This document shows positions 1 to 57,355 of a stretch of DNA of 57,355 nucleotides, in pieces. The notes beneath the pieces are model-generated. The model was not told where the DNA came from, ran no database searches, and saw only the letters and a program-made list of their open reading frames with translations. Every line of letters starts with the position of its first letter. The first letter of the stretch is position 1. The stretch is from IMG/VR virus record IMGVR_UViG_3300045020_000042, positions 1 to 57,355 of that record. One strand, 5' to 3'. The stretch is from a virus (Duplodnaviria; Caudoviricetes). Made by a program: the position numbers and the translations under genes.

Positions 1-225
1 TGACGGCGCTCGCGGTCTGCTTCAAGAAGTTGGTGGAACTGTTTTAGAGGCGAACGGCCGACGACCGTGAAGTTCGGCCCACCAGACAGAGGTACGGAGG
101 CTCTATGCAACGCGCCCGTATTCAACCCGTAACAGCTGAGGACGAAATGGAAGACAAATCAAAGCAGCCAGTGGTAACCGTATCTGCGCCACCCCAGGTG
201 GAAAATCCACGCGCCCAGCGCCGCG
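1..225 (+). repeat. Terminal overlap, copy 1 (short allele)
   Basis: 1-116 = 56968-57083 and 117-225 = 57247-57355. The end copy has 163 extra bp. Consistent with a circular or terminally redundant assembly. Confidence 0.95.
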
Positions 226-563
226 TTCCACAGAGCCTGAACCGCCTCGAGCAGGCGGAGTACTTCAAGCTCTACAAGTGGATCGAGGCCGTCTGGTCCG
301 AGATCAGCAAGGAGCCCGGGATCCTTCGCGCGACGATCGCGCAACGCGCAACGGGCGCGCTCGGGTTCACGATCACCGAGCACCACATCTTCGGCGCGCT
401 CAAGAGCATGGGTCTCGAGCTTCCCGGCGTCAAGCGCGTTGTGAAGACCGACGAGGCCGTGAAGACGCTCGCGCAGACGCTCCTCATGCTGATCTCCGAG
501 ATCCCGCTGCTCGCTGCGAAGGTTCCTCAAGAGATCTTTGACGCGGTCAAGGAGCTGTCGTGA
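105..563 (+). CDS. Hypothetical early protein (N-terminus depends on allele)
   Basis: ORF with GGAGG before ATG105 and a second start at 148 after GCTGAGGAC. In the long allele it starts at 57169. Confidence 0.7.
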   Translation: MQRARIQPVTAEDEMEDKSKQPVVTVSAPPQVENPRAQRRVPQSLNRLEQAEYFKLYKWIEAVWSEISKEPGILRATIAQRATGALGFTITEHHIFGALKSMGLELPGVKRVVKTDEAVKTLAQTLLMLISEIPLLAAKVPQEIFDAVKELS

Positions 564-49990: not shown

Positions 49991-50000
49991 GAGATTGGAA

Positions 50001-50159
50001 ATGCTCGGATACCACGCTCAATGGATTATCTGTTTGATCGAACGTCGCGCTGCTGCACTGGCACGCGGTGAAAACCACGCAGCACGTTTGATCGAAAACA
50101 AACTACGTCGCACGGTTCGTTCGATGTTTAACGACGACGATCAAATATCATACGATTAA
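50001..50159 (+). CDS. First early gene (52 aa, not in ORF track)
   Basis: GGAGA RBS; MLGYHAQWIICLIERRAAALARGEN... Confidence 0.65.
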   Translation: MLGYHAQWIICLIERRAAALARGENHAARLIENKLRRTVRSMFNDDDQISYD

Positions 50160-50161
50160 CA

Positions 50162-50215
50162 GATCGAAACGTCGCGCGAGCGGCGTTCGTACGTTACGCG
50201 TACGCTGATGAGATC
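50162..50215 (+). ncRNA. Type II hammerhead ribozyme HH1
   Basis: GATC-GAAA-CGTCGC(GCGA)GCGGCG-TT-CGTACG(TTACG)CGTACG-CTGATGA-GATC; predicted cleavage after GUU at 50187. Confidence 0.93.
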
Positions 50216-50235
50216 AACCGCTGAGGACAAAAATC

Positions 50236-50556
50236 ATGGCAAAGTTTAACTTCAAGAAGTTCAACGAACAAGAGCGCGTTGCGCTCGAACGCGCTCGCGA
50301 GAATCATCCCGGCGAGTTCTATGTTGAGATCGACTTCGCAACCGGACAGACTGACGGCGCACCGAACGACGAGACGAAAGAAATCACGCAGTATTTCGCA
50401 GCGCGCGGTCTCGACTCCGAGATCATTACGTTGAATGGTCCCGGCGGCGGTTGGCCGTCCGTGTTCGTCGTCGGAACGTTCGACAAAATTACCGCGTGGG
50501 CAAACAGCGCGGAATGGAAAGATTCAATTGATCTTGGTTTTATCAAGCCGCTGTAA
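50236..50556 (+). CDS. Early hypothetical protein
   Basis: GCTGAGGAC RBS; GPGGGWP motif. Confidence 0.8.
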   Translation: MAKFNFKKFNEQERVALERARENHPGEFYVEIDFATGQTDGAPNDETKEITQYFAARGLDSEIITLNGPGGGWPSVFVVGTFDKITAWANSAEWKDSIDLGFIKPL

Positions 50557-50565
50557 ACCAGACCA

Positions 50566-50619
50566 GATCGAAACGTCGCGCGAGCGGCGTCCGTACGTTA
50601 CGCGTACGCTGATGAGATC
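50566..50619 (+). ncRNA. Type II hammerhead ribozyme HH2
   Basis: Identical to HH1 except at the cleavage nucleotide (GUC, cut after 50591). Confidence 0.95.
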
Positions 50620-50636
50620 AACCGCTGAGGACAATC

Positions 50637-50843
50637 ATGAAAATCACGCAAATCAAGTTTGAAGTTCCGTCTGAGCAGATCGACGCAATTGAAGAACTGC
50701 TTGGTAATGAATGCGCGTTGTACGACACGTCGCTCGGCGCAGCGCTCGATAACAACGTTTTCACTGTAACTCTGCACTTCGACCCAAATATGGTCGATCG
50801 CGATACGATCAACAGTTTGCTCGACGCGATCGAATCCGTTTAA
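50637..50843 (+). CDS. Acidic early protein
   Basis: GCTGAGGAC RBS, Asp/Glu-rich. Confidence 0.75.
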   Translation: MKITQIKFEVPSEQIDAIEELLGNECALYDTSLGAALDNNVFTVTLHFDPNMVDRDTINSLLDAIESV

Positions 50844-50918
50844 CCCAGATCGAAACGCACTATACGGGCAAACCGCTAGCTCCCGATTGCTACCGCTTTT
50901 ACGCTTGAGGACAGAATC

Positions 50919-51116
50919 ATGGTCATGGTCAAATATTTCCATAACGGAAACCCAGTTACCACAGAACGCGCGTGGGAAATTATTACGCACGAGTCGGTCG
51001 ATATCGACCCAGAAGAACTTGCCGTACTCTGGCTTCATTCTCAATTTTCCGAAGAAGCACGTGACACGATTTTTGACTTGAGCGACTGCACTCTGGAGAT
51101 CGTCGTTGATGAATAA
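50919..51116 (+). CDS. Acidic early protein
   Basis: TGAGGAC RBS, Asp/Glu-rich. Confidence 0.7.
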   Translation: MVMVKYFHNGNPVTTERAWEIITHESVDIDPEELAVLWLHSQFSEEARDTIFDLSDCTLEIVVDE

Positions 51117-51222
51117 AATCGACTGGCGCGCTGTCGGCGTCGCGGTCATGGCGATCGTCGGCTGCGCGCTCGGCGCGGCCACGATCATCCTGACGTCGAT
51201 CGATCCGGACTTCATTTTGTAA
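51109..51222 (+). CDS. Small membrane protein (37 aa)
   Basis: GGAGA RBS; MNKIDWRAVGVAVMAIVGCALGAATIILTSIDPDFIL. Confidence 0.6.
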   Translation: MNKIDWRAVGVAVMAIVGCALGAATIILTSIDPDFIL

Positions 51223-51423
51223 CTTTATTACGATTCAAGATTTACATATTTTTGTACATAAGTTAGCACACCTCGTACTTCACACTATACAATGTAATCA
51301 CTGCAGTCTAACACGCCGCAGCAACGGAAATGGAAATCAAAGCTAGACGTCGTTGATGACGCTGCTGTACCAGGACCGGCACTCGTAACTGACTTTCTAA
51401 CTTTCTCGTATTGGAGATTTATC

Positions 51424-52236
51424 ATGATCGCTCAAACTGTCAAGACTTTCAAAGCGCGCTCGTCCGCGACGGACGTTCTTCGCGCTATCGGCGTACCCAC
51501 GCGTGATTACAACCTCTTCATCGAACCGGTCGACGGCGGCGTCGCATGCAAGATCGGACTCGCTCAGTCTCACGTCGAAGCGCTGAAGATCCAGACCCAG
51601 GTCGGCGGCGGCGCGCTCGTAACGACAGCAGCACCGAAGAAGTCGAGACGCGCGGTCAAGAGCGACCCAGTCGGAAAGTCGATCGCGCAGACCGCCGCGG
51701 GCATTACGAACGCTCTCAGCGACGTCGGCGCCGAAGCGGCCGCGAGCGCGATCGTCGAAGCAGCGGAGAAAGCCGTAACGCTCGTCAACCCGGCCGCGTG
51801 GCCGTTTCCGACTACGAAAGCGCTGCAGATCGCGAAGAACGCTGCCGAAGCGGGTCGCGGTCAGCGCGCGAGCGACGCGCAGACTTCCGCGAGCGTTCGT
51901 GCGACCGGACAGAACGGATCGACGGTCGTTGTTCCGAAGAACGTTGCGAAGAACGCTGGACTGAAAATCCACAAAGACGAACGTCCGTCGAAACTGAACC
52001 GCGCCGACGCGGCCGCGTTCGTGAAGAAGTCCGGGTCGACGCCGGTCACCGCGCCGGCGAAGAAGGCCGACGAGAAGCGGACCGTCTCGTCCGTCGCTCG
52101 CGCGCTGATCGTCGCGGGCAAGACGAACGAGGAGGTATGGGACGCTTTGGTCAAGGAATTCAAGCTCGACGACAGCAAGAAATCCTATCCGGCGTGGTAC
52201 CGCCGTGAATGCAAGAACAAGGGATTGATCAAGTGA
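51424..52236 (+). CDS. Ala/Lys-rich protein with C-terminal helical domain
   Basis: GGAGA RBS; C-terminus ARALIVAGKTNEEVW..LVKEFKLDDSKKSYPAWYR. Confidence 0.85.
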   Translation: MIAQTVKTFKARSSATDVLRAIGVPTRDYNLFIEPVDGGVACKIGLAQSHVEALKIQTQVGGGALVTTAAPKKSRRAVKSDPVGKSIAQTAAGITNALSDVGAEAAASAIVEAAEKAVTLVNPAAWPFPTTKALQIAKNAAEAGRGQRASDAQTSASVRATGQNGSTVVVPKNVAKNAGLKIHKDERPSKLNRADAAAFVKKSGSTPVTAPAKKADEKRTVSSVARALIVAGKTNEEVWDALVKEFKLDDSKKSYPAWYRRECKNKGLIK

Positions 52237-52276
52237 TCGATCCGACTCCGCACCTCTTGATGGGGTGCGATGACCA

Positions 52277-52315
52277 CAACTCAGAGCGAAGTTCTGGGCT
52301 CTGGGTTGCTTTTTC
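52277..52315 (+). terminator. Rho-independent terminator
   Basis: CAACTCAGAGC/GCTCTGGGTTG stem followed by CTTTTT. Confidence 0.7.
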
Positions 52316-52319
52316 ACTT

Positions 52320-52610
52320 ATTTTCACCTGTTACAGACCGTCTGTTACGAAACAGGTTACAGACGTTTTTTAAACCTCTCTAAGAAAATTCTCTCTTTCT
52401 CTCTTCTCTATCGTTTCTACTATATACTTATTTAGTAACAGTAACAGTAGTTGGTAACAGAGAGAAAGTGATGAATATTCCACATTTCCCTTACGGATCA
52501 AGAGCTTAGCGCTCGGCGCTCGGCCTTTTATCGTCTCGTCATTTCACACTGCCAATCTGTAACTGCCGTAGTTACGCTCTGCGTCCTGCGCTCGTCGTCG
52601 CGTTACGGTT
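52320..52610. other. Putative replication origin
   Basis: Three GTTAC then three GTAAC flanking an AT/CT-rich core, upstream of the primase-helicase. Confidence 0.6.
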
Positions 52611-52637
52611 TACTTTCATGAGCGCGCGCTATACTAT
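52609..52637 (+). promoter_or_regulatory. Sigma70-like promoter for primase-helicase
   Basis: TTTACT-17 bp-TACTAT. Confidence 0.5.
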
Positions 52638-52836
52638 CTTCTGGCCGGCGTCTGCCGCAGTATCCTCCGAAGTCACGCTCGTGGCTTGGCCGCATCTTCC
52701 CGGCCGATCTCTGCAAAACGTCCTCAGCCCACCTAGGACGCCGGCGCCTTTACCTGGGGCAATGGGCTGAACGCGTAGGAAACCTTGGCTGAGGACGACG
52801 CGAGAGAGGATCCGGGACTGACAGGAAGAAGTACCC

Positions 52837-54984
52837 ATGACTACTAAACGTTCGCGTTCTCCCGCGAAACCCGTTATCGACCCGTCACTTGAACTGGCCG
52901 TGACGGAGAAACTTCGATCTTCGGGGCTCGACTTCGACGACGCGCGCGCGCTCGGGATCGACGTACTCGACAAGCACGCGGTCAGGTCGCTGCACCCATC
53001 GTTCGATCTCCGTCCGGCCATCAAGATTCCCTATTTTCGTCCCGACGATCCCATATCCGCGCTTCGTTGCGGGCAGCGGCCGCCGTTCTACCGGCTCCGC
53101 TATCTGACCGACCCCCCGGCCGGCCCGTTCGGTGAACGTGAGCTGAAGCCGCGACGTTACACGAACGAACCGCGCATGGGTGTCTGCGCATACTTCCCTC
53201 GGCTGACCGATTGGCCCGCGCTGATCGCTGACGTCGACCGGCCGCTGATCATTACCGAGGGAGAACTGAAAGCAGCGTGCGCGACGAAGCACGGATTTCC
53301 TACGATCGGGCTCGGCGGCGTGTTTAACTACGCGTCGAAGGAGCTCGACTTGCCGTTTCTCGACGAGCTCGACCTGGTTTGCTGGCTCGGCCGCGCGGTC
53401 TATATCGTGTACGACTCGGACCTCGCTTCGAACAGCAACGTCTGTCTCGCGCTGAACCGGCTCGCGCGCAAGCTGCAGCAACACGGCGCGAACGTTCTCG
53501 TTGGGTTTCTCCCGTCCGTTACGGAAGGCGGCAAGACGGGGCTCGACGACTTCATCGTTCATCAAGGTTCCGACGAACTGAAGAAACTGCTCGCGGCCGC
53601 GTCTCCGATGACGACCGAGCAGGTCCTTCACCAGATGAATGATCACAACGTTTTCATCTACGAATCGGCCTCGATCTGGTCTACACTCACGTTGACGAAC
53701 CAGCCCGTGAAAGGTTTCTTTGACGCGTACGCCGCGAAGGTGTTCGAACGTCGCGAGGTCAAAGTCGATAAGGACGGACTGCCAGTACTCACGCGCAAGC
53801 CGATGCCCGCAGCGAAGGCCTGGATTGAGTGGCCGTTGAGACGTGAGGCGGGGAAACTGTCCTACGAGCCCGGCATGCCGCCCGGTCTGGTCGACCACGA
53901 AAGCGGGTACCCAGAGATGCGGAGATGGAACGTCTGGTCGGGCTGGCCGGTTGAGCCGCAACGCGGCGACATCGACCCGTTCATGACGCTGATCGATCAC
54001 GTGTTCAAGGATGTCGATGAGTCAGTCAAGCGATGGTTCTTGAGTTGGGTCGCGTGGCCGCTGCAGTTTCCGGGGACTAAGCTCTACAGCGCCGTCGTCA
54101 TTCACGGTCGACTTCACGGAACGGGCAAGTCGTTGCTCGGTGAGACAGTTGGAAAGCTGTACGGGGAGAACTTTACCATCATCGGTAATGAGGAACTTCA
54201 CGGCAAGTATAACGGCTGGGCCGCGCGTAAGCAGTTCATTCTCGGCGATGAGATTACCGGCTCGGACCGTCGCACGCTGCAGGACAAGATCAAGCGGATG
54301 ATTACCCAGACGCGGATCCGGATCGACAACAAGTACGAGAAAGCGTACGAGCTGCGTGACTGCGTTAATTACCTTTTCACGTCGAACCGTGCGAACGCGT
54401 TCATGATCGACGACGACGACCGCCGGTTGCTGATCCATGAGATGCCAGAGGATGTGGTGCTTGACGAGGAGAAGTTTTTCAAACGTGAATACGAAACGTG
54501 GATCGATTCGCGCCAGGGCCAAGCCGCGCTGCTTGACTATCTCCTGAAGTATGACGTCTGCGACTTTAACCCGAACGGACGTGCGCCGATGACGGTCGCG
54601 AAGCAGCAGATGATCTATCATTCGAAGTCCGACCTCGGCGCGTGGGTCATGCAGCTTCGCGAGTCGCCCGACCAGCTGCTGCTCGGCGCCGCTCAAGACC
54701 TGTTCACGAACGGCGAGCTGCTCGCGTACTATCAGGGCGCGGACGTCAGCGGGCGGGATAAGGTCACCGCTCAGGGGATGGGAAACGCGTTGCGTGACGC
54801 CGGCTTCGTCATGGCGAATAAGGGACAGCCGATGCGCGGGCCCGGCAGCGTCGGCCGATATTACGTCATCCGGAACCCTGAGAAATGGCGTTCGGCCTCG
54901 GTCTCGGAGCTGGGTGCTCACTTAAAGGATCCGAAACCCGTGCCGCGTGAGAAAGTCACGCCGATCAAGAAGACGAAGTACTGA
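52837..54984 (+). CDS. Toprim primase (DUF3854-like) fused to SF3 helicase
   Basis: IITEGELKA, IGLGGV, IVYDSD, KTGLDD; HGTGKS, GDEI, FTSN...DDRR. Confidence 0.9.
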   Translation: MTTKRSRSPAKPVIDPSLELAVTEKLRSSGLDFDDARALGIDVLDKHAVRSLHPSFDLRPAIKIPYFRPDDPISALRCGQRPPFYRLRYLTDPPAGPFGERELKPRRYTNEPRMGVCAYFPRLTDWPALIADVDRPLIITEGELKAACATKHGFPTIGLGGVFNYASKELDLPFLDELDLVCWLGRAVYIVYDSDLASNSNVCLALNRLARKLQQHGANVLVGFLPSVTEGGKTGLDDFIVHQGSDELKKLLAAASPMTTEQVLHQMNDHNVFIYESASIWSTLTLTNQPVKGFFDAYAAKVFERREVKVDKDGLPVLTRKPMPAAKAWIEWPLRREAGKLSYEPGMPPGLVDHESGYPEMRRWNVWSGWPVEPQRGDIDPFMTLIDHVFKDVDESVKRWFLSWVAWPLQFPGTKLYSAVVIHGRLHGTGKSLLGETVGKLYGENFTIIGNEELHGKYNGWAARKQFILGDEITGSDRRTLQDKIKRMITQTRIRIDNKYEKAYELRDCVNYLFTSNRANAFMIDDDDRRLLIHEMPEDVVLDEEKFFKREYETWIDSRQGQAALLDYLLKYDVCDFNPNGRAPMTVAKQQMIYHSKSDLGAWVMQLRESPDQLLLGAAQDLFTNGELLAYYQGADVSGRDKVTAQGMGNALRDAGFVMANKGQPMRGPGSVGRYYVIRNPEKWRSASVSELGAHLKDPKPVPREKVTPIKKTKY

Positions 54985-54997
54985 GGAGGCCACGTTT

Positions 54998-55345
54998 ATG
55001 TCCGCTTCAAGTTTCAATGATCACCGTCCTACGGTCTGGTACGTCCTCGCTCCGTCCCAGCGGCTCGCGACGTACGCGGCCCAGGAGTTCCGGCAGATTC
55101 TCAGCGACTGCGAGACGTCGAGCCGGGAGTTCAAGGCCTGGACGTGGCTCGACGCTCGCGACGTTCACGCGATCTGCTCGCCCGCCACGGTTCGCGTGCT
55201 CTATGTCGACTCGCCGCGGCCGTTCGCGTGTCTTGACCAGGCGTACAAGCGGGAGAACTGGGCCCGCGCGATGGAGGTTCTCGAGGCCGAGATGACGAAG
55301 AACCGGTCGAAAGACCACTGGTACGTCCGGCTCGTCCTGCCGTAA
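54998..55345 (+). CDS. Hypothetical protein
   Basis: GAGGAGG RBS. Confidence 0.7.
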   Translation: MSASSFNDHRPTVWYVLAPSQRLATYAAQEFRQILSDCETSSREFKAWTWLDARDVHAICSPATVRVLYVDSPRPFACLDQAYKRENWARAMEVLEAEMTKNRSKDHWYVRLVLP

Positions 55346-55354
55346 CCGCATTCC

Positions 55355-55392
55355 ATTATGTACATTCACATTCGACATACTATAATCTAGTT
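55355..55392 (+). promoter_or_regulatory. Promoter candidate
   Basis: TATAAT at 55381 in an AT-rich gap; TAATCTAGTT shared with the promoter at 49941. Confidence 0.55.
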
Positions 55393-55436
55393 ACGGTCAC
55401 TCACGACCGCAAGCGAACTCTCTGGCTGAGGACAAC

Positions 55437-55847
55437 ATGAAACTTGAACGTTTTGACAAGCTGACCGCGAACGCGCTGGTCGCACGGCTGAACGCGGCCC
55501 TGAAGGGGCTGGGCGAAATGTACGGCGTTACGTTGAATATCAACGGCGGTTCGATCCAGACGCCGACCGCGATGAAGCTGAACCTCGAAGCAACGATCGC
55601 CGGTACGGCTTCGGTCCGCCTGCAGCGCGCCAGCGACGACCTGCGCCGCTACCGCGACCTGTACCTGCCCGGCGTCGACCTGGAACAGCTCTACGCGCAC
55701 TTGACGCTCGGCTTGGTCCGGATCACCGGATTTAACGCGCGCGCGCCGAAACTGCCCGTGCTCGTTACGGCCGAAGACGGGAAGGTTTACCGCATGACCG
55801 TCGACTCCGTCAAACGCATGACCGCTCACGCCCCGAGGACAGCATGA
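55437..55847 (+). CDS. Hypothetical protein
   Basis: GCTGAGGAC RBS; ITGFNARAPKLPV...DGKVYR. Confidence 0.8.
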   Translation: MKLERFDKLTANALVARLNAALKGLGEMYGVTLNINGGSIQTPTAMKLNLEATIAGTASVRLQRASDDLRRYRDLYLPGVDLEQLYAHLTLGLVRITGFNARAPKLPVLVTAEDGKVYRMTVDSVKRMTAHAPRTA

Positions 55848-56005
55848 AAACTTTCACTATCGTTTACAAGCGGCTTGGGTTCAAGACGAACCTGCGCGCT
55901 CACGTTCCCGCGCTGTCGGCACTCGACGCACAGGACATCTTTCTCACCGACATCGCGCCGCGCATCATGATCGAGCGTCTCGACGTCTTTCACGGACTGG
56001 TCTGA
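55844..56005 (+). CDS. Small hypothetical protein
   Basis: GAGGAC RBS, ATGA coupling; MKTFTIVYKRLG... Confidence 0.65.
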   Translation: MKTFTIVYKRLGFKTNLRAHVPALSALDAQDIFLTDIAPRIMIERLDVFHGLV

Positions 56006-56007
56006 CC

Positions 56008-56160
56008 GTGAGCAAGCGGTATCGCGTCATCGTTGAGATCGGAGGACAGAGGTTGTTCTCCGGGTCTCTTTCGCAGTGCGAGCAGTACATCAGGGACAAT
56101 GGTCTTGTTCTTGAGTACCGCTCGTCTGCTCACCCGCACCTTTACGTGAGCGGAGTCTGA
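56008..56160 (+). CDS. Small hypothetical protein
   Basis: GTG start, fills the gap exactly. Confidence 0.5.
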   Translation: MSKRYRVIVEIGGQRLFSGSLSQCEQYIRDNGLVLEYRSSAHPHLYVSGV

Positions 56161-56161
56161 C

Positions 56162-56350
56162 ATGTTCAAGATCCTGATTACCACCCGGTACTGGTCATCG
56201 TCCGGGTGCAACGTTCATACCATCGTCGAGTCATTCGATACCGAGCACGACGCGTTGACGGCCGTGCGGGTCATCAACACCTGCGCGAAGTCGGGCATGG
56301 ACTCCTCGGTCAACCGCGAAGCGATCGCGCTGTTTGAGGTACGGTTATGA
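56162..56350 (+). CDS. Hypothetical protein
   Basis: GGAG RBS. Confidence 0.7.
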   Translation: MFKILITTRYWSSSGCNVHTIVESFDTEHDALTAVRVINTCAKSGMDSSVNREAIALFEVRL

Positions 56351-56529
56351 GTCCGGTCCAGTTCACACCGCCGTCGCGGCCCGTGCATACCGAGCTCGTC
56401 ATGCTCGCGCACGGTTACATGGAAGTCACGGTCGTCAACGCCGACGAGCCCAACCCGCTCAAGCGTGTCGCGGTCCTGCGCCGCACGGTCGACTATCGCG
56501 ACGTCTGCATCGAGGGCTGGGTGTCATGA
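56347..56529 (+). CDS. Hypothetical protein
   Basis: GAGGT RBS, ATGA coupling. Confidence 0.65.
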   Translation: MSPVQFTPPSRPVHTELVMLAHGYMEVTVVNADEPNPLKRVAVLRRTVDYRDVCIEGWVS

Positions 56530-56624
56530 TCTGGCTCTTTGTCCTCGGCTCATACTGCGCCGTGTCCGTTACCGCGGCCGCGGCATTCTCGCTGTTGTTT
56601 ATCGGCTCGCGCCTGAGGGACTGA
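56526..56624 (+). CDS. Small membrane peptide
   Basis: MIWLFVLGSYCAVSVTAAAAFSLLFIGSRLRD, coupled. Confidence 0.5.
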   Translation: MIWLFVLGSYCAVSVTAAAAFSLLFIGSRLRD

Positions 56625-56626
56625 CG

Positions 56627-56893
56627 ATGGAGATCCTTTACTCTCACAACCTGGGCGGGAACGTACACGCCGCCGTTGCCTGGGTGAACAAGTTCGACCT
56701 CGCCGAGCGCGTGATCCAGATCGTCCCGGTCGATAGCTGCGCGACGATCATCGTCTTGCGGATGAACCTGCGGGACTACGTGTATTACGTGTACGACCGC
56801 AAGCGCCTGTCCTCACGCACGAACCTCGACGACTTGGCGAGGAAGCACGGCCTGCTCGCGTTCGACATGCGGCAAGGCCATTACATCGTTTAG
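56627..56893 (+). CDS. Hypothetical protein
   Basis: GAGGG RBS before MEILYSH. Confidence 0.65.
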   Translation: MEILYSHNLGGNVHAAVAWVNKFDLAERVIQIVPVDSCATIIVLRMNLRDYVYYVYDRKRLSSRTNLDDLARKHGLLAFDMRQGHYIV

Positions 56894-56903
56894 GAGCGCG
56901 CTC

Positions 56904-57014
56904 ATGATTGCGACGCTGCAGGAGCTTGGAGTCATCGCGGTCGACGCCGTAGCCGTACTCGGGTTCGTGACGGCGCTCGCGGTCTGCTTCAAGAAGTTGG
57001 TGGAACTGTTTTAG
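56904..57014 (+). CDS. Small membrane peptide (36 aa)
   Basis: TAGGAG RBS, hydrophobic. Confidence 0.6.
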   Translation: MIATLQELGVIAVDAVAVLGFVTALAVCFKKLVELF

Positions 57015-57099
57015 AGGCGAACGGCCGACGACCGTGAAGTTCGGCCCACCAGACAGAGGTACGGAGGCTCTATGCAACGCGCCGGGGAAAGCCCGGTCA

Positions 57100-57152
57100 G
57101 GTCGAAAAGGTCGGGAGGACCTTCGCAGCGTGAGGCGCTGCCTGATGAGACC
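57100..57152 (+). ncRNA. Type II hammerhead ribozyme HH3
   Basis: GGTC-GAAA-AGGTC(GGGAG)GACCT-TC-GCAGCG(TGAGG)CGCTGC-CTGATGA-GACC; predicted cleavage after UUC at 57124. Confidence 0.92.
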
Positions 57153-57168
57153 CTAACCGAGGTGCCGC

Positions 57169-57355
57169 ATGGCCCGACTGATCAAGGTATCAAAGCTGCA
57201 GGCCCAGATGCTGAGTCGTGTCGGCGTCGCCACGGTCCGCGTAACTCGTATTCAACCCGTAACAGCTGAGGACGAAATGGAAGACAAATCAAAGCAGCCA
57301 GTGGTAACCGTATCTGCGCCACCCCAGGTGGAAAATCCACGCGCCCAGCGCCGCG
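57169..57355 (+). CDS. 5' part of the long-allele version of the gene ending at 563
   Basis: GAGGT RBS; MARLIKVSKLQAQMLSRVGVATVRVT-RIQPVTAEDEMEDK..., in frame with 117-563. Confidence 0.65.
   Translation, partial: MARLIKVSKLQAQMLSRVGVATVRVTRIQPVTAEDEMEDKSKQPVVTVSAPPQVENPRAQRR

What the first reader, a model, noticed from the sequence alone, without database searches (positions are those of the whole stretch)
57084..57246. A 163-bp hammerhead-containing segment is present in one terminal copy and cleanly absent in the other, switching a gene's N-terminus
Seen: the start copy reads ATG CAA CGC GCC|CGT ATT CAA, giving MQRA-RIQPV in frame. The end copy has 163 bp between the same bases, with no target-site duplication or junction microhomology. 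The insert holds most of a CCGGG-GAAAG-CCCGG hairpin, HH3, an RBS and a new ATG (57169) giving MARLIKVSK...VT-RIQPV, while the upstream ATG is diverted into a 65-aa out-of-frame ORF. Both alleles therefore encode the protein (unit genome 57130 vs 56967 bp). Inference: either a population indel that removes the ribozyme yet keeps the gene expressed, a mobile ribozyme cassette, or an intron-like element. An assembly artefact is also possible.
Basis: partly seen in the sequence, partly recalled or inferred. Interest (0 to 1): 0.85.

Follow-up and report, generated by a model that had tools for sequence, protein, structure and literature searches.

The report
Ribozyme-removing deletion variant in soil phage
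A soil phage population holds two versions of one gene region, the original and a copy that has lost 163 bases carrying a self-cutting RNA and the gene's conserved first 26 codons; this is ordinary strain variation, not a jumping element or an intron.

Summary
Window 1-116 equals 56968-57083 and 117-225 equals 57247-57355, so 57084-57246 (163 bp) is extra in the end copy.

The window is a whole IMG/VR phage record. Its ends overlap because a circular assembly walked through both branches of a variant. In the probable source run, k=31 contigs show both branches: long form depth 12.6, short junction depth 8.7, flanks 16.8 and 15.6. It is therefore not a one-read chimera.

The segment holds a consensus type II hammerhead (57100-57152), then a ribosome-binding site, ATG 57169 and 26 codons. 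Two more hammerheads of the same design lie at 50162 and 50566. Eight of 17 pairs covary, and 0 of 200 simulated windows gave any hit. Rfam does not score any of them.

Decisive point: the 26 codons inside the segment are homologous to the N-termini of distant relatives. BLASTP to P0003 gives E 3e-11, and the alignment runs across the right junction. The long allele is therefore ancestral. The short allele is a deletion with no microhomology, no target duplication and no terminal repeats.

A start that recurs in relatives, ATG 147/57277, lies downstream of the indel.

Mobile-cassette and intron readings are not supported. Interest is low to moderate.

The parts
1..116 (.). Start copy of the terminal overlap, left of the junction (short allele)
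   Evidence: Identical to 56968-57083
117..225 (.). Start copy of the terminal overlap, right of the junction (short allele)
   Evidence: Identical to 57247-57355
56968..57083 (.). End copy of the overlap, left flank of the 163-bp segment
   Evidence: The Logan contig of 6479 b ends exactly at 57083
57084..57246 (+). 163-bp segment present only in the long allele, deleted in the short allele
   Evidence: A 223-b contig 57054-57276 at depth 12.6 carries it, and a joint 57083->57247 at depth 8.7 skips it
57247..57355 (.). End copy of the overlap, right flank
   Evidence: The Logan contig of 18372 b begins at 57247
57082..57096 (+). 5-bp hairpin that straddles the left junction (first two bases in the flank)
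57100..57152 (+). Type II hammerhead HH3. Stem II 57100-57103 with 57149-57152. GAA 57104-57106. Stem III hairpin 57107-57123. C17 at 57124, with the predicted cut between 57124 and 57125. Stem I hairpin 57125-57141. CUGAUGA 57142-57148
   Evidence: Descriptor scan, MFE fold, covariation with HH1/HH2. Rfam does not score it
57159..57171 (+). Ribosome-binding site (GAGG 57159-57162) and ATG 57169 of the long form
   Evidence: The distance from hammerhead end to ATG (16 nt) matches HH1 (20 nt) and HH2 (17 nt)
57169..57246 (+). 26 codons of the conserved N-terminal motif of the gene, lost in the short allele
   Evidence: Homologous N-termini in relatives
57063..57074 (+). GGAGG plus ATG 57072 (= 96-107 in the start copy). 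It opens a 65-aa out-of-frame ORF in the long allele and the in-frame 152-aa ORF in the short allele
   Evidence: The frame of the 65-aa ORF has the lowest GC3 of the three frames (0.56 against 0.67 and 0.65)
57266..57279 (+). Internal start context CTGAGGA plus ATG 57277 (= 136-149 in the start copy), downstream of the indel
   Evidence: 11 of 24 CTGAGGA sites in the window precede an ATG that opens 40 or more codons. The gene caller's product P0001 (138 aa) starts here. A Met stands in or near this place in 7 of 9 long forms (by eye)
105..563 (+). The affected gene (short-allele ORF, 152 aa). Small helical protein of unknown function with no Pfam or PHROG family
56904..57014 (+). Upstream 36-aa hydrophobic ORF of the same operon
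   Evidence: L004 has small hydrophobic ORFs in the same place
50162..50215 (+). HH1, a type II hammerhead 20 nt upstream of ATG 50236
50566..50619 (+). HH2, a type II hammerhead 17 nt upstream of ATG 50637
55359..55386 (+). Promoter-like site, candidate start of the operon that runs through HH3
   Evidence: This is a consensus match only (1 found, 0.6 expected)

Best explanation
This is a real presence/absence polymorphism inside one soil phage population, and it was caught because a circular assembly passed through both variants.

The long allele is the ancestral state. In it, a polycistronic early-region transcript carries a type II hammerhead (HH3). HH3 would cut itself between C57124 and G57125. 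That cut would free an mRNA with a 44-nt leader, a ribosome-binding site and ATG 57169. This ATG opens the full-length gene, including a conserved 26-residue N-terminal motif.

The short allele arose by one illegitimate 163-bp deletion with no microhomology. It removed HH3, that ribosome-binding site and ATG, and the N-terminal motif.

The rest of the protein can still be made in two ways. One is the internal start ATG 147/57277, which has the phage's usual ribosome-binding context and matches a Met seen in relatives. The other is ATG 105, which the deletion happens to leave in frame.

Shown: the two DNA forms and their depths, the hammerhead consensus and covariation, and the homology of the N-terminal motif across the junction.

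Inferred: ribozyme activity, which starts are used, the direction of the event, and that the short form is viable.
For: (1) Both forms are in the reads. In run X1, a 6479-b contig (depth 16.8) ends at 57083 and an 18372-b contig (depth 15.6) starts at 57247. A 223-b contig, 57054-57276, carries the segment at depth 12.6. One contig joins 57083 to 57247 at depth 8.7 with 30 letters on the shorter side. This is the shape of a k=31 bubble.

(2) The long allele is ancestral. The 62 aa read from ATG 57169 align to relative P0003 at 24/48 identities, E 3e-11. The alignment covers query residues 3-47, so it runs across the junction between residues 26 and 27. The motif also matches the L004 ORF at E 1e-4. 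By eye, 7 of the 35 other representatives carry it (P0011 only weakly), and so does the ORF of L004, upstream of its called start.

(3) Hammerhead. Three descriptor hits in the window against 0 of 200 simulated windows with any hit. All 50 cells pair, and 8 of 17 pairs change on both sides between HH3 and HH1/HH2. The three-way junction also forms in the 221-nt context fold.

(4) The hammerhead, ribosome-binding site, ATG order recurs. The distances are 20, 17 and 16 nt in the window. The same order shows in most of the 19 hammerheads found in 12 of 35 fetched viral loci (read by eye).

(5) No sign of an element. No repeats at the boundaries, a single copy in the window, and 0 hits for the HH3-specific pattern in viral contigs and genome contigs.

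(6) An internal start is plausible.
Against: X1 may be the very sample the record was assembled from, so it is not independent support. Only contigs were laid, not raw reads, so allele counts, read duplicates and linkage to other variants are unknown. The branch depths sum to 21.3 against about 16 in the flanks.

The direction of the event rests on protein homology to distant relatives (28 to 54% identity to P0003). The only relative whose DNA I could read (L004) has no hammerhead upstream, so the age of HH3 at this site is unknown.

The strong GGAGG plus ATG at 57063-57074 has no evident role in the long allele. That would be easier to explain if the short form were older.

GC3 does not separate the frames inside the segment (0.73 against 0.69).

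Rfam's models do not score any of the three hammerheads. I also saw at most a 3-bp version of the loop I to 3' tail pseudoknot that Perreault et al. 2011 report for most type II hammerheads (by eye). Activity is therefore unproven.
Confidence: 0.75

Rival explanations
1. Insertion by recombination. The short form is the older state in this lineage, and the long form arose when a related phage donated the hammerhead, ribosome-binding site, ATG and N-terminal motif block. This would have been homologous exchange on the right side and illegitimate joining on the left.
For: The GGAGG plus ATG at 57063-57074 looks like a working start that the long allele leaves stranded in front of a 65-aa out-of-frame ORF. 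The hammerhead, ribosome-binding site, ATG block behaves as a module, found three times in this genome and many times in other phage contigs.
Against: The residues just right of the junction continue the homology with P0003 without a break. So the short form would have had to lose the motif earlier and then regain it in exact register. No donor or second copy was found. One deletion is simpler.
Confidence: 0.12
2. Mobile ribozyme cassette or intron-like element. The 163 bp would move as a unit at the DNA level, or be removed from RNA so that ATG 57072 reads through to the gene.
For: The presence/absence is clean, with no microhomology, and removal leaves ATG 57072/105 in frame. A 5-bp helix (57077-57081 with 57238-57242) can bring the ends near each other in the MFE fold.
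Against: The last 78 bp are conserved coding sequence of the host gene. There is no target duplication, no terminal inverted repeat and no second copy. No group I or II signal was found: the best row is 10.6 bits against a gathering score of 49, E 7.3. The single hammerhead cuts 41 nt from the left junction and 122 nt from the right. Both forms exist in a run whose 57-kb cover is even, as DNA would be. The context fold is no more stable than shuffles (z 0.57).
Confidence: 0.03
3. Artefact. The short junction is a chimeric or misassembled join with no biological counterpart.
For: The contig ends are an assembler's product. IMG/VR itself classed the record as linear. Only contigs from the probable source sample were available.
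Against: An independent reassembly of the run (Logan, k=31) reproduces the short junction at word depth 8.7 beside 12.6 for the long branch. The join is exact and keeps a reading frame.
Confidence: 0.04

Closest known systems
Type II hammerhead ribozymes that flank genes in phages and prophages (Perreault et al. 2011, PMC3088659; passages read)
   Same: [quoted passage not shown] Several copies lie close together between genes of one transcription unit. The paper suggests that long phage transcripts are processed into single-gene mRNAs.
   Different: None of the three copies reaches any Rfam hammerhead threshold. The loop I to 3' tail pseudoknot described for most type II examples is not evident (at most 3 bp, by eye). 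Here one copy is also polymorphic in the population.
HHphage of haloviruses HF1/HF2, 13 nt upstream of a helicase start codon (same paper)
   Same: A hammerhead sits immediately upstream of the start codon of an early gene. In that case the mapped 5' end lies next to the cut site.
   Different: That is an archaeal virus with a variant hammerhead. No RNA ends are known for the present phage.
Indel microdiversity in uncultivated phage populations, seen as assembly-graph bubbles (recalled general knowledge, no paper read)
   Same: Two co-existing forms differ by one indel, with identical flanks in the assembled sequence.
   Different: This indel happens to remove a ribozyme and a conserved protein motif while leaving the gene translatable.
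Presence/absence of self-splicing group I introns in phage genes (recalled; not tested beyond Rfam)
   Same: Clean presence/absence without target duplication, and an open frame once the segment is removed.
   Different: There is no group I fold, the size is too small, the segment's own 3' part is exon-like conserved coding sequence, and both forms are DNA.

Membership tests
Hammerhead ribozyme, type II | Catalytic core: CUGANGA, GAA, A15.1-U16.1, a non-G at position 17, G10.1-C11.1 | tested here: met
   All are present at 57100-57152, and also at 50162-50215 and 50566-50619
Hammerhead ribozyme, type II | Three-way junction with stems I and III closed by loops and stem II open | tested here: met
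   The MFE fold of 57095-57158 gives exactly this (-26 kcal/mol, z -2.33). It is kept in the 221-nt context
Hammerhead ribozyme, type II | Stems supported by compensatory changes | tested here: met
   17 pairs, 50 of 50 cells paired, 8 pairs changed on both sides, and 0 of 500 shuffles reach this. There are only 3 sequences, two of them nearly identical
Hammerhead ribozyme, type II | Score at or above Rfam's gathering threshold for a hammerhead model | tested here: not met
   0 hits at gathering. The only hammerhead row is Hammerhead_3 at 13.4 bits against 48.5. Focused scans found none
Hammerhead ribozyme, type II | Tertiary contact: pseudoknot of 4 or more bp between loop I and the tail after stem II, reported for a majority of type II examples (PMC3088659) | tested here: inconclusive
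   I could draw at most 3 bp by eye. No tool was run for this
Hammerhead ribozyme, type II | Self-cleavage | not testable with these tools
   No RNA run holds the stretch
Self-splicing intron (group I or II) | Conserved catalytic fold and splice-site features | tested here: not met
   The only row is group-II-D1D4-4 at 10.6 bits against 49, E 7.3. There is no group I row
Self-splicing intron (group I or II) | The inserted segment is foreign to the host gene's coding sequence | tested here: not met
   The last 26 codons of the segment are homologous to the N-termini of relatives
Transposable element or miniature derivative | Target-site duplication or terminal inverted repeats | tested here: not met
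   None at 57083/57084 or 57246/57247
Transposable element or miniature derivative | More than one copy, or copies in other contexts | tested here: not met
   A single copy in the window. 0 matches of the HH3-specific pattern in viral contigs and genome contigs. No relative of the segment's peptide in viral contigs. Metagenome contigs was not scanned for the segment itself
Complete circular or terminally redundant phage contig (end overlap) | Identical sequence at both contig ends | tested here: met
   225 of 225 shared bases are identical and are interrupted only by the 163-bp indel. CheckV completeness is 100

The most novel reading that the evidence does not exclude
The gene family has a conserved two-start design: a long form with the N-terminal motif and a short form from an internal start. 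In this phage the hammerhead serves the long form only. The 163-bp loss would then be a recurrent or selected switch that turns off the ribozyme-dependent long isoform while keeping the short one. That would give a natural isogenic ribozyme-plus and ribozyme-minus pair in one population.
Probability: 0.1. Interest if true: 0.5.

Novelty: new member of a known kind. Interest (0 to 1): 0.25.

Why it matters
What phage and bacterial hammerheads do is still described as unresolved in the 2019 review (PMC6765202; passages read). A natural pair of phage genomes, identical in the assembled sequence, that differ by one hammerhead and its start codon would make a convenient test case. It asks whether the ribozyme, and the long protein form it precedes, matter for fitness.

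The variant itself is ordinary strain-level variation, and no new mechanism is needed to explain it.

Two practical points follow. First, such an indel hides a complete, circularly assembled genome from end-repeat detection: IMG/VR calls this record linear. Second, Rfam's models miss all three well-formed type II hammerheads of this phage.

Tried and rejected
Relatives by DNA. blastn of 50000-57355 against GenBank phages gave one irrelevant 98-bp match.

Relatives by protein.
- Viral contigs gave none with the 152-aa protein, the primase, the 62-aa long N-terminus or alignment A1.
- Genome contigs gave none.
- tblastn against GenBank phages gave none, with the window protein or with P0003.
- The word-index protein search found only the protein itself.
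- The full phmmer scan gave 36 representatives.
- Metagenome contigs gave one locus, L004.

Function of the gene.
- No Pfam or PHROG family.
- The ESM Atlas gave scores of 0.83 or less, a lead only.
- Foldseek against PDB had nothing at E 0.001 or better.
- VIA wide search gave only helical-hairpin rows with Z 7.1 or less. These are common arrangements, so they are uninformative.

Deletion at the base of a DNA or RNA structure. The context fold is no more stable than shuffles (z 0.57 for RNA, 0.01 for DNA), and the breakpoints do not sit at the foot of the closing helix. Rejected.

Expression. No RNA holder is listed.

Run X2 (share 0.05). Only short low-depth pieces and no joint at the site, so it says nothing about the junction.

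Hole in X1 cover at 50246-50491. This is between the HH1 and HH2 repeats, and I draw no conclusion from it.

Codon-position GC inside the segment does not separate the frames.

The DNA around P0002 to P0036 could therefore not be read, except L004. Supplements of PMC3088659 (its hammerhead alignments) were not seen and may hold close relatives of these ribozymes.

Full report
WHAT THE WINDOW IS. The window is one complete IMG/VR virus record of 57,355 b. It is classed 'linear', with CheckV completeness 100. GC is 61.8%. PHROG hits to portal, large terminase, major head protein, head closure, DNA polymerase, primase, exonuclease, thymidylate synthase and methyltransferase mark it as a tailed dsDNA phage. 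By my crude ORF map, structural genes lie on the minus strand at about 24-49 kb. Early and replication genes lie on the plus strand from about 50 kb, across the contig ends, to about 21 kb.

THE OBSERVATION. Positions 1-116 equal 56968-57083 and 117-225 equal 57247-57355, base for base. So 57084-57246 (163 bp) is extra in the end copy. The junction letters share nothing on either side. No direct or inverted repeat sits at the boundaries.

ARE BOTH FORMS REAL? One public soil-metagenome run, X1, holds 99% of the sampled words of 50000-57355 and may be the source sample. A second run, X2, holds 5%. I laid Logan's k=31 contigs of both on 50000-57355. X1 gives the following.
- A 6479-b contig (depth 16.8) stops exactly at 57083.
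- An 18372-b contig (depth 15.6) starts exactly at 57247.
- A 223-b contig covers 57054-57276, which is 30 + 163 + 30 bases, at depth 12.6.
- One contig joins 57083 directly to 57247 at depth 8.7, with 30 letters on the shorter side.

This is the picture of a two-branch bubble, and both branches have substantial depth. The duplicated contig ends therefore come from a circular assembly that took the short branch at one end and the long branch at the other. That also explains why end-repeat detection failed. Three caveats apply: these are contigs and not reads, X1 is probably not independent of the record, and X2 says nothing about the site.

THE RIBOZYME. Rfam reports no hammerhead at gathering score in the window. 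With loose thresholds the only hammerhead row is a 13.4-bit Hammerhead_3 alignment that needs a 114-nt insertion. Focused scans gave nothing.

Read directly, 57100-57152 has every element of a type II hammerhead:
- a 4-bp open stem II;
- GAA;
- a 6-bp stem III hairpin that begins with A and ends with U;
- C at position 17;
- a 6-bp stem I hairpin;
- CUGAUGA, followed by G pairing with C.

A descriptor with these rules finds exactly three sites in the window, all on the plus strand (50162-50215, 50566-50619, 57100-57152). It finds none in 200 second-order Markov simulations. On an alignment of the three sites, all 50 cells of 17 pairs are paired, 8 pairs differ on both sides between HH3 and HH1/HH2, and slid controls collapse. 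The MFE fold gives the three-way junction both alone and in a 221-nt context.

Each hammerhead ends 20, 17 or 16 nt before an ATG with a purine-rich ribosome-binding site. I scanned viral contigs for the core plus the short tail motif shared by the three sites. That scan fetched 35 loci, and my descriptor found 19 hammerheads in 12 of them. Read by eye, most are again followed by a ribosome-binding site and an ATG.

This arrangement is known. Perreault et al. 2011 (PMC3088659, passages read) describe type II hammerheads, several of them flanking single genes in prophages, and one 13 nt before a start codon in haloviruses. The loop I to 3' tail pseudoknot they report for most type II examples is not evident here (at most 3 bp, by eye). 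That may be why the Rfam model is silent. Activity is therefore inferred and not shown.

WHICH ALLELE IS OLDER? This is the decisive result. A full phmmer scan with the 152-aa short-allele protein found 36 representatives at E 0.001 or better. The conserved domain starts near residue 40 of the query, so the region touched by the indel lies before it.

Several relatives have a longer N-terminus with a basic stretch and a short helix motif. That motif matches the 26 residues encoded inside the 163-bp segment. By eye it is present in 7 of the 35 other representatives: P0003, P0005, P0008, P0009, P0017, P0019 and, weakly, P0011.

BLASTP of the 62 aa read from ATG 57169 against P0003 gives 24/48 identities, E 3e-11. 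The alignment covers residues 3-47, so it runs straight across the right junction, which lies between residues 26 and 27.

The only relative whose DNA I could fetch is L004, which shows the same thing. The called protein, which begins like P0004, starts at an internal ATG. The frame is open upstream, however, and encodes the motif (BLASTP E 1e-4). L004 has no hammerhead core upstream of that long start.

An AlphaFold model of P0003 built on 33 family members has mean pLDDT 87.8, and the motif appears as a confident short helix at residues 11-19.

So the 3' 78 bp of the 'insert' are an original part of the gene. The long allele is the intact arrangement, and the short allele is a deletion whose right end lies inside the coding sequence.

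WHICH STARTS ARE USED? ATG 147/57277 lies downstream of the indel. It follows CTGAGGA, a context that precedes an ATG opening 40 or more codons at 11 of the 24 sites of that word in the window. The product on record for this gene, P0001 (138 aa), starts there. In 7 of the 9 long forms aligned, a Met stands in or near this place, and two short-form relatives begin at it (by eye). The short allele can therefore still make the domain without using ATG 105.

That ATG 105 ends up in frame has a one-in-three chance. The 65-aa ORF from ATG 57072 in the long allele has the lowest GC3 of its three frames (0.56), and the ribozyme would cut its mRNA, so I do not take it for a gene. The strong GGAGG in front of it remains unexplained, and it is the main point in favour of the insertion rival.

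REJECTED READINGS.
- Mobile cassette: no duplication or terminal repeats, a single copy in the window, no copy of the HH3-specific sequence in viral contigs or genome contigs, and the segment is part of the host gene.
- Intron: both forms are DNA, there is no group I or II signal, and the cut site 57124/57125 is 41 nt from the left junction and 122 nt from the right.
- Structure-guided slippage: the context fold is not unusual.

FUNCTION OF THE GENE. Unknown. It is a small helical protein with no Pfam or PHROG family and no convincing fold match.

VERDICT. The best reading, at about 0.75, is a within-population deletion that removes a hammerhead together with the long start and N-terminal motif of an early gene. 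The ribozyme is a new member of a known kind, and the polymorphism is ordinary microdiversity. Its modest value is as a natural ribozyme-plus and ribozyme-minus pair, in a field where the role of phage hammerheads is still open (PMC6765202, passages read). Interest is 0.25.

Noticed in passing
window 50155-50646: HH1 and HH2, with their tails and ribosome-binding sites, form two nearly identical repeats of about 70 nt. They bracket a 106-aa gene (50236-50556, weak hit to phrog_5922). Within the hammerhead they differ only at position 17 (U against C). A 43-b Logan contig over the repeat has about double depth (28.4).
   Followed up: partly
window 136, 2608, 3787, 7233, 15798, 50221, 50625, 54981, 55426 (+); 24423, 32773 (-): The word CTGAGGA, often preceded by AACC and a few bases, recurs just upstream of start codons: 11 of 24 sites precede an ATG that opens 40 or more codons. 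The conserved part is longer than a plain Shine-Dalgarno match would need.
   Followed up: partly
window 56842 to 57123: In run X1 one contig (depth 3.52) joins 56842 to 57123 with five other letters in between. Position 57123 is one base from the predicted hammerhead cut site. This could be a third variant, a foldback artefact or another organism. I could not see the contig.
   Followed up: no
window 51186 to 54407: A joint in X1 skips 3220 bases (depth 4.77, only 21 letters on the shorter side). It is probably spurious at the likeness threshold of 85 that I used.
   Followed up: no
window 147-149 / 57277-57279; L004 529-531: The gene family seems to keep an internal Met with a ribosome-binding site about 20-35 residues before the conserved domain. 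Gene callers pick it in at least three cases (P0001, P0004, P0014) while the frame stays open upstream. This points to a possible two-isoform design.
   Followed up: partly
L013 6053-8161; L024 4792-6330; L031 10194-11879: Other IMG/VR phage contigs carry three or four type II hammerheads within 1-2 kb, each just before a ribosome-binding site and an ATG. L006/L030, L007/L036 and L026/L039 are duplicate or near-duplicate loci.
   Followed up: partly
whole window: IMG/VR classes the record as linear because the 163-bp indel breaks the end repeat. The genome is in fact closed, with a 225-b overlap. Rfam 15 also misses all three well-formed type II hammerheads.
   Followed up: yes
window 57247-57354: The poorly conserved linker after the junction has GC3 of 0.50 in the gene's frame, against 0.88 in the gene body, while another frame reaches 0.75.
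   Followed up: no
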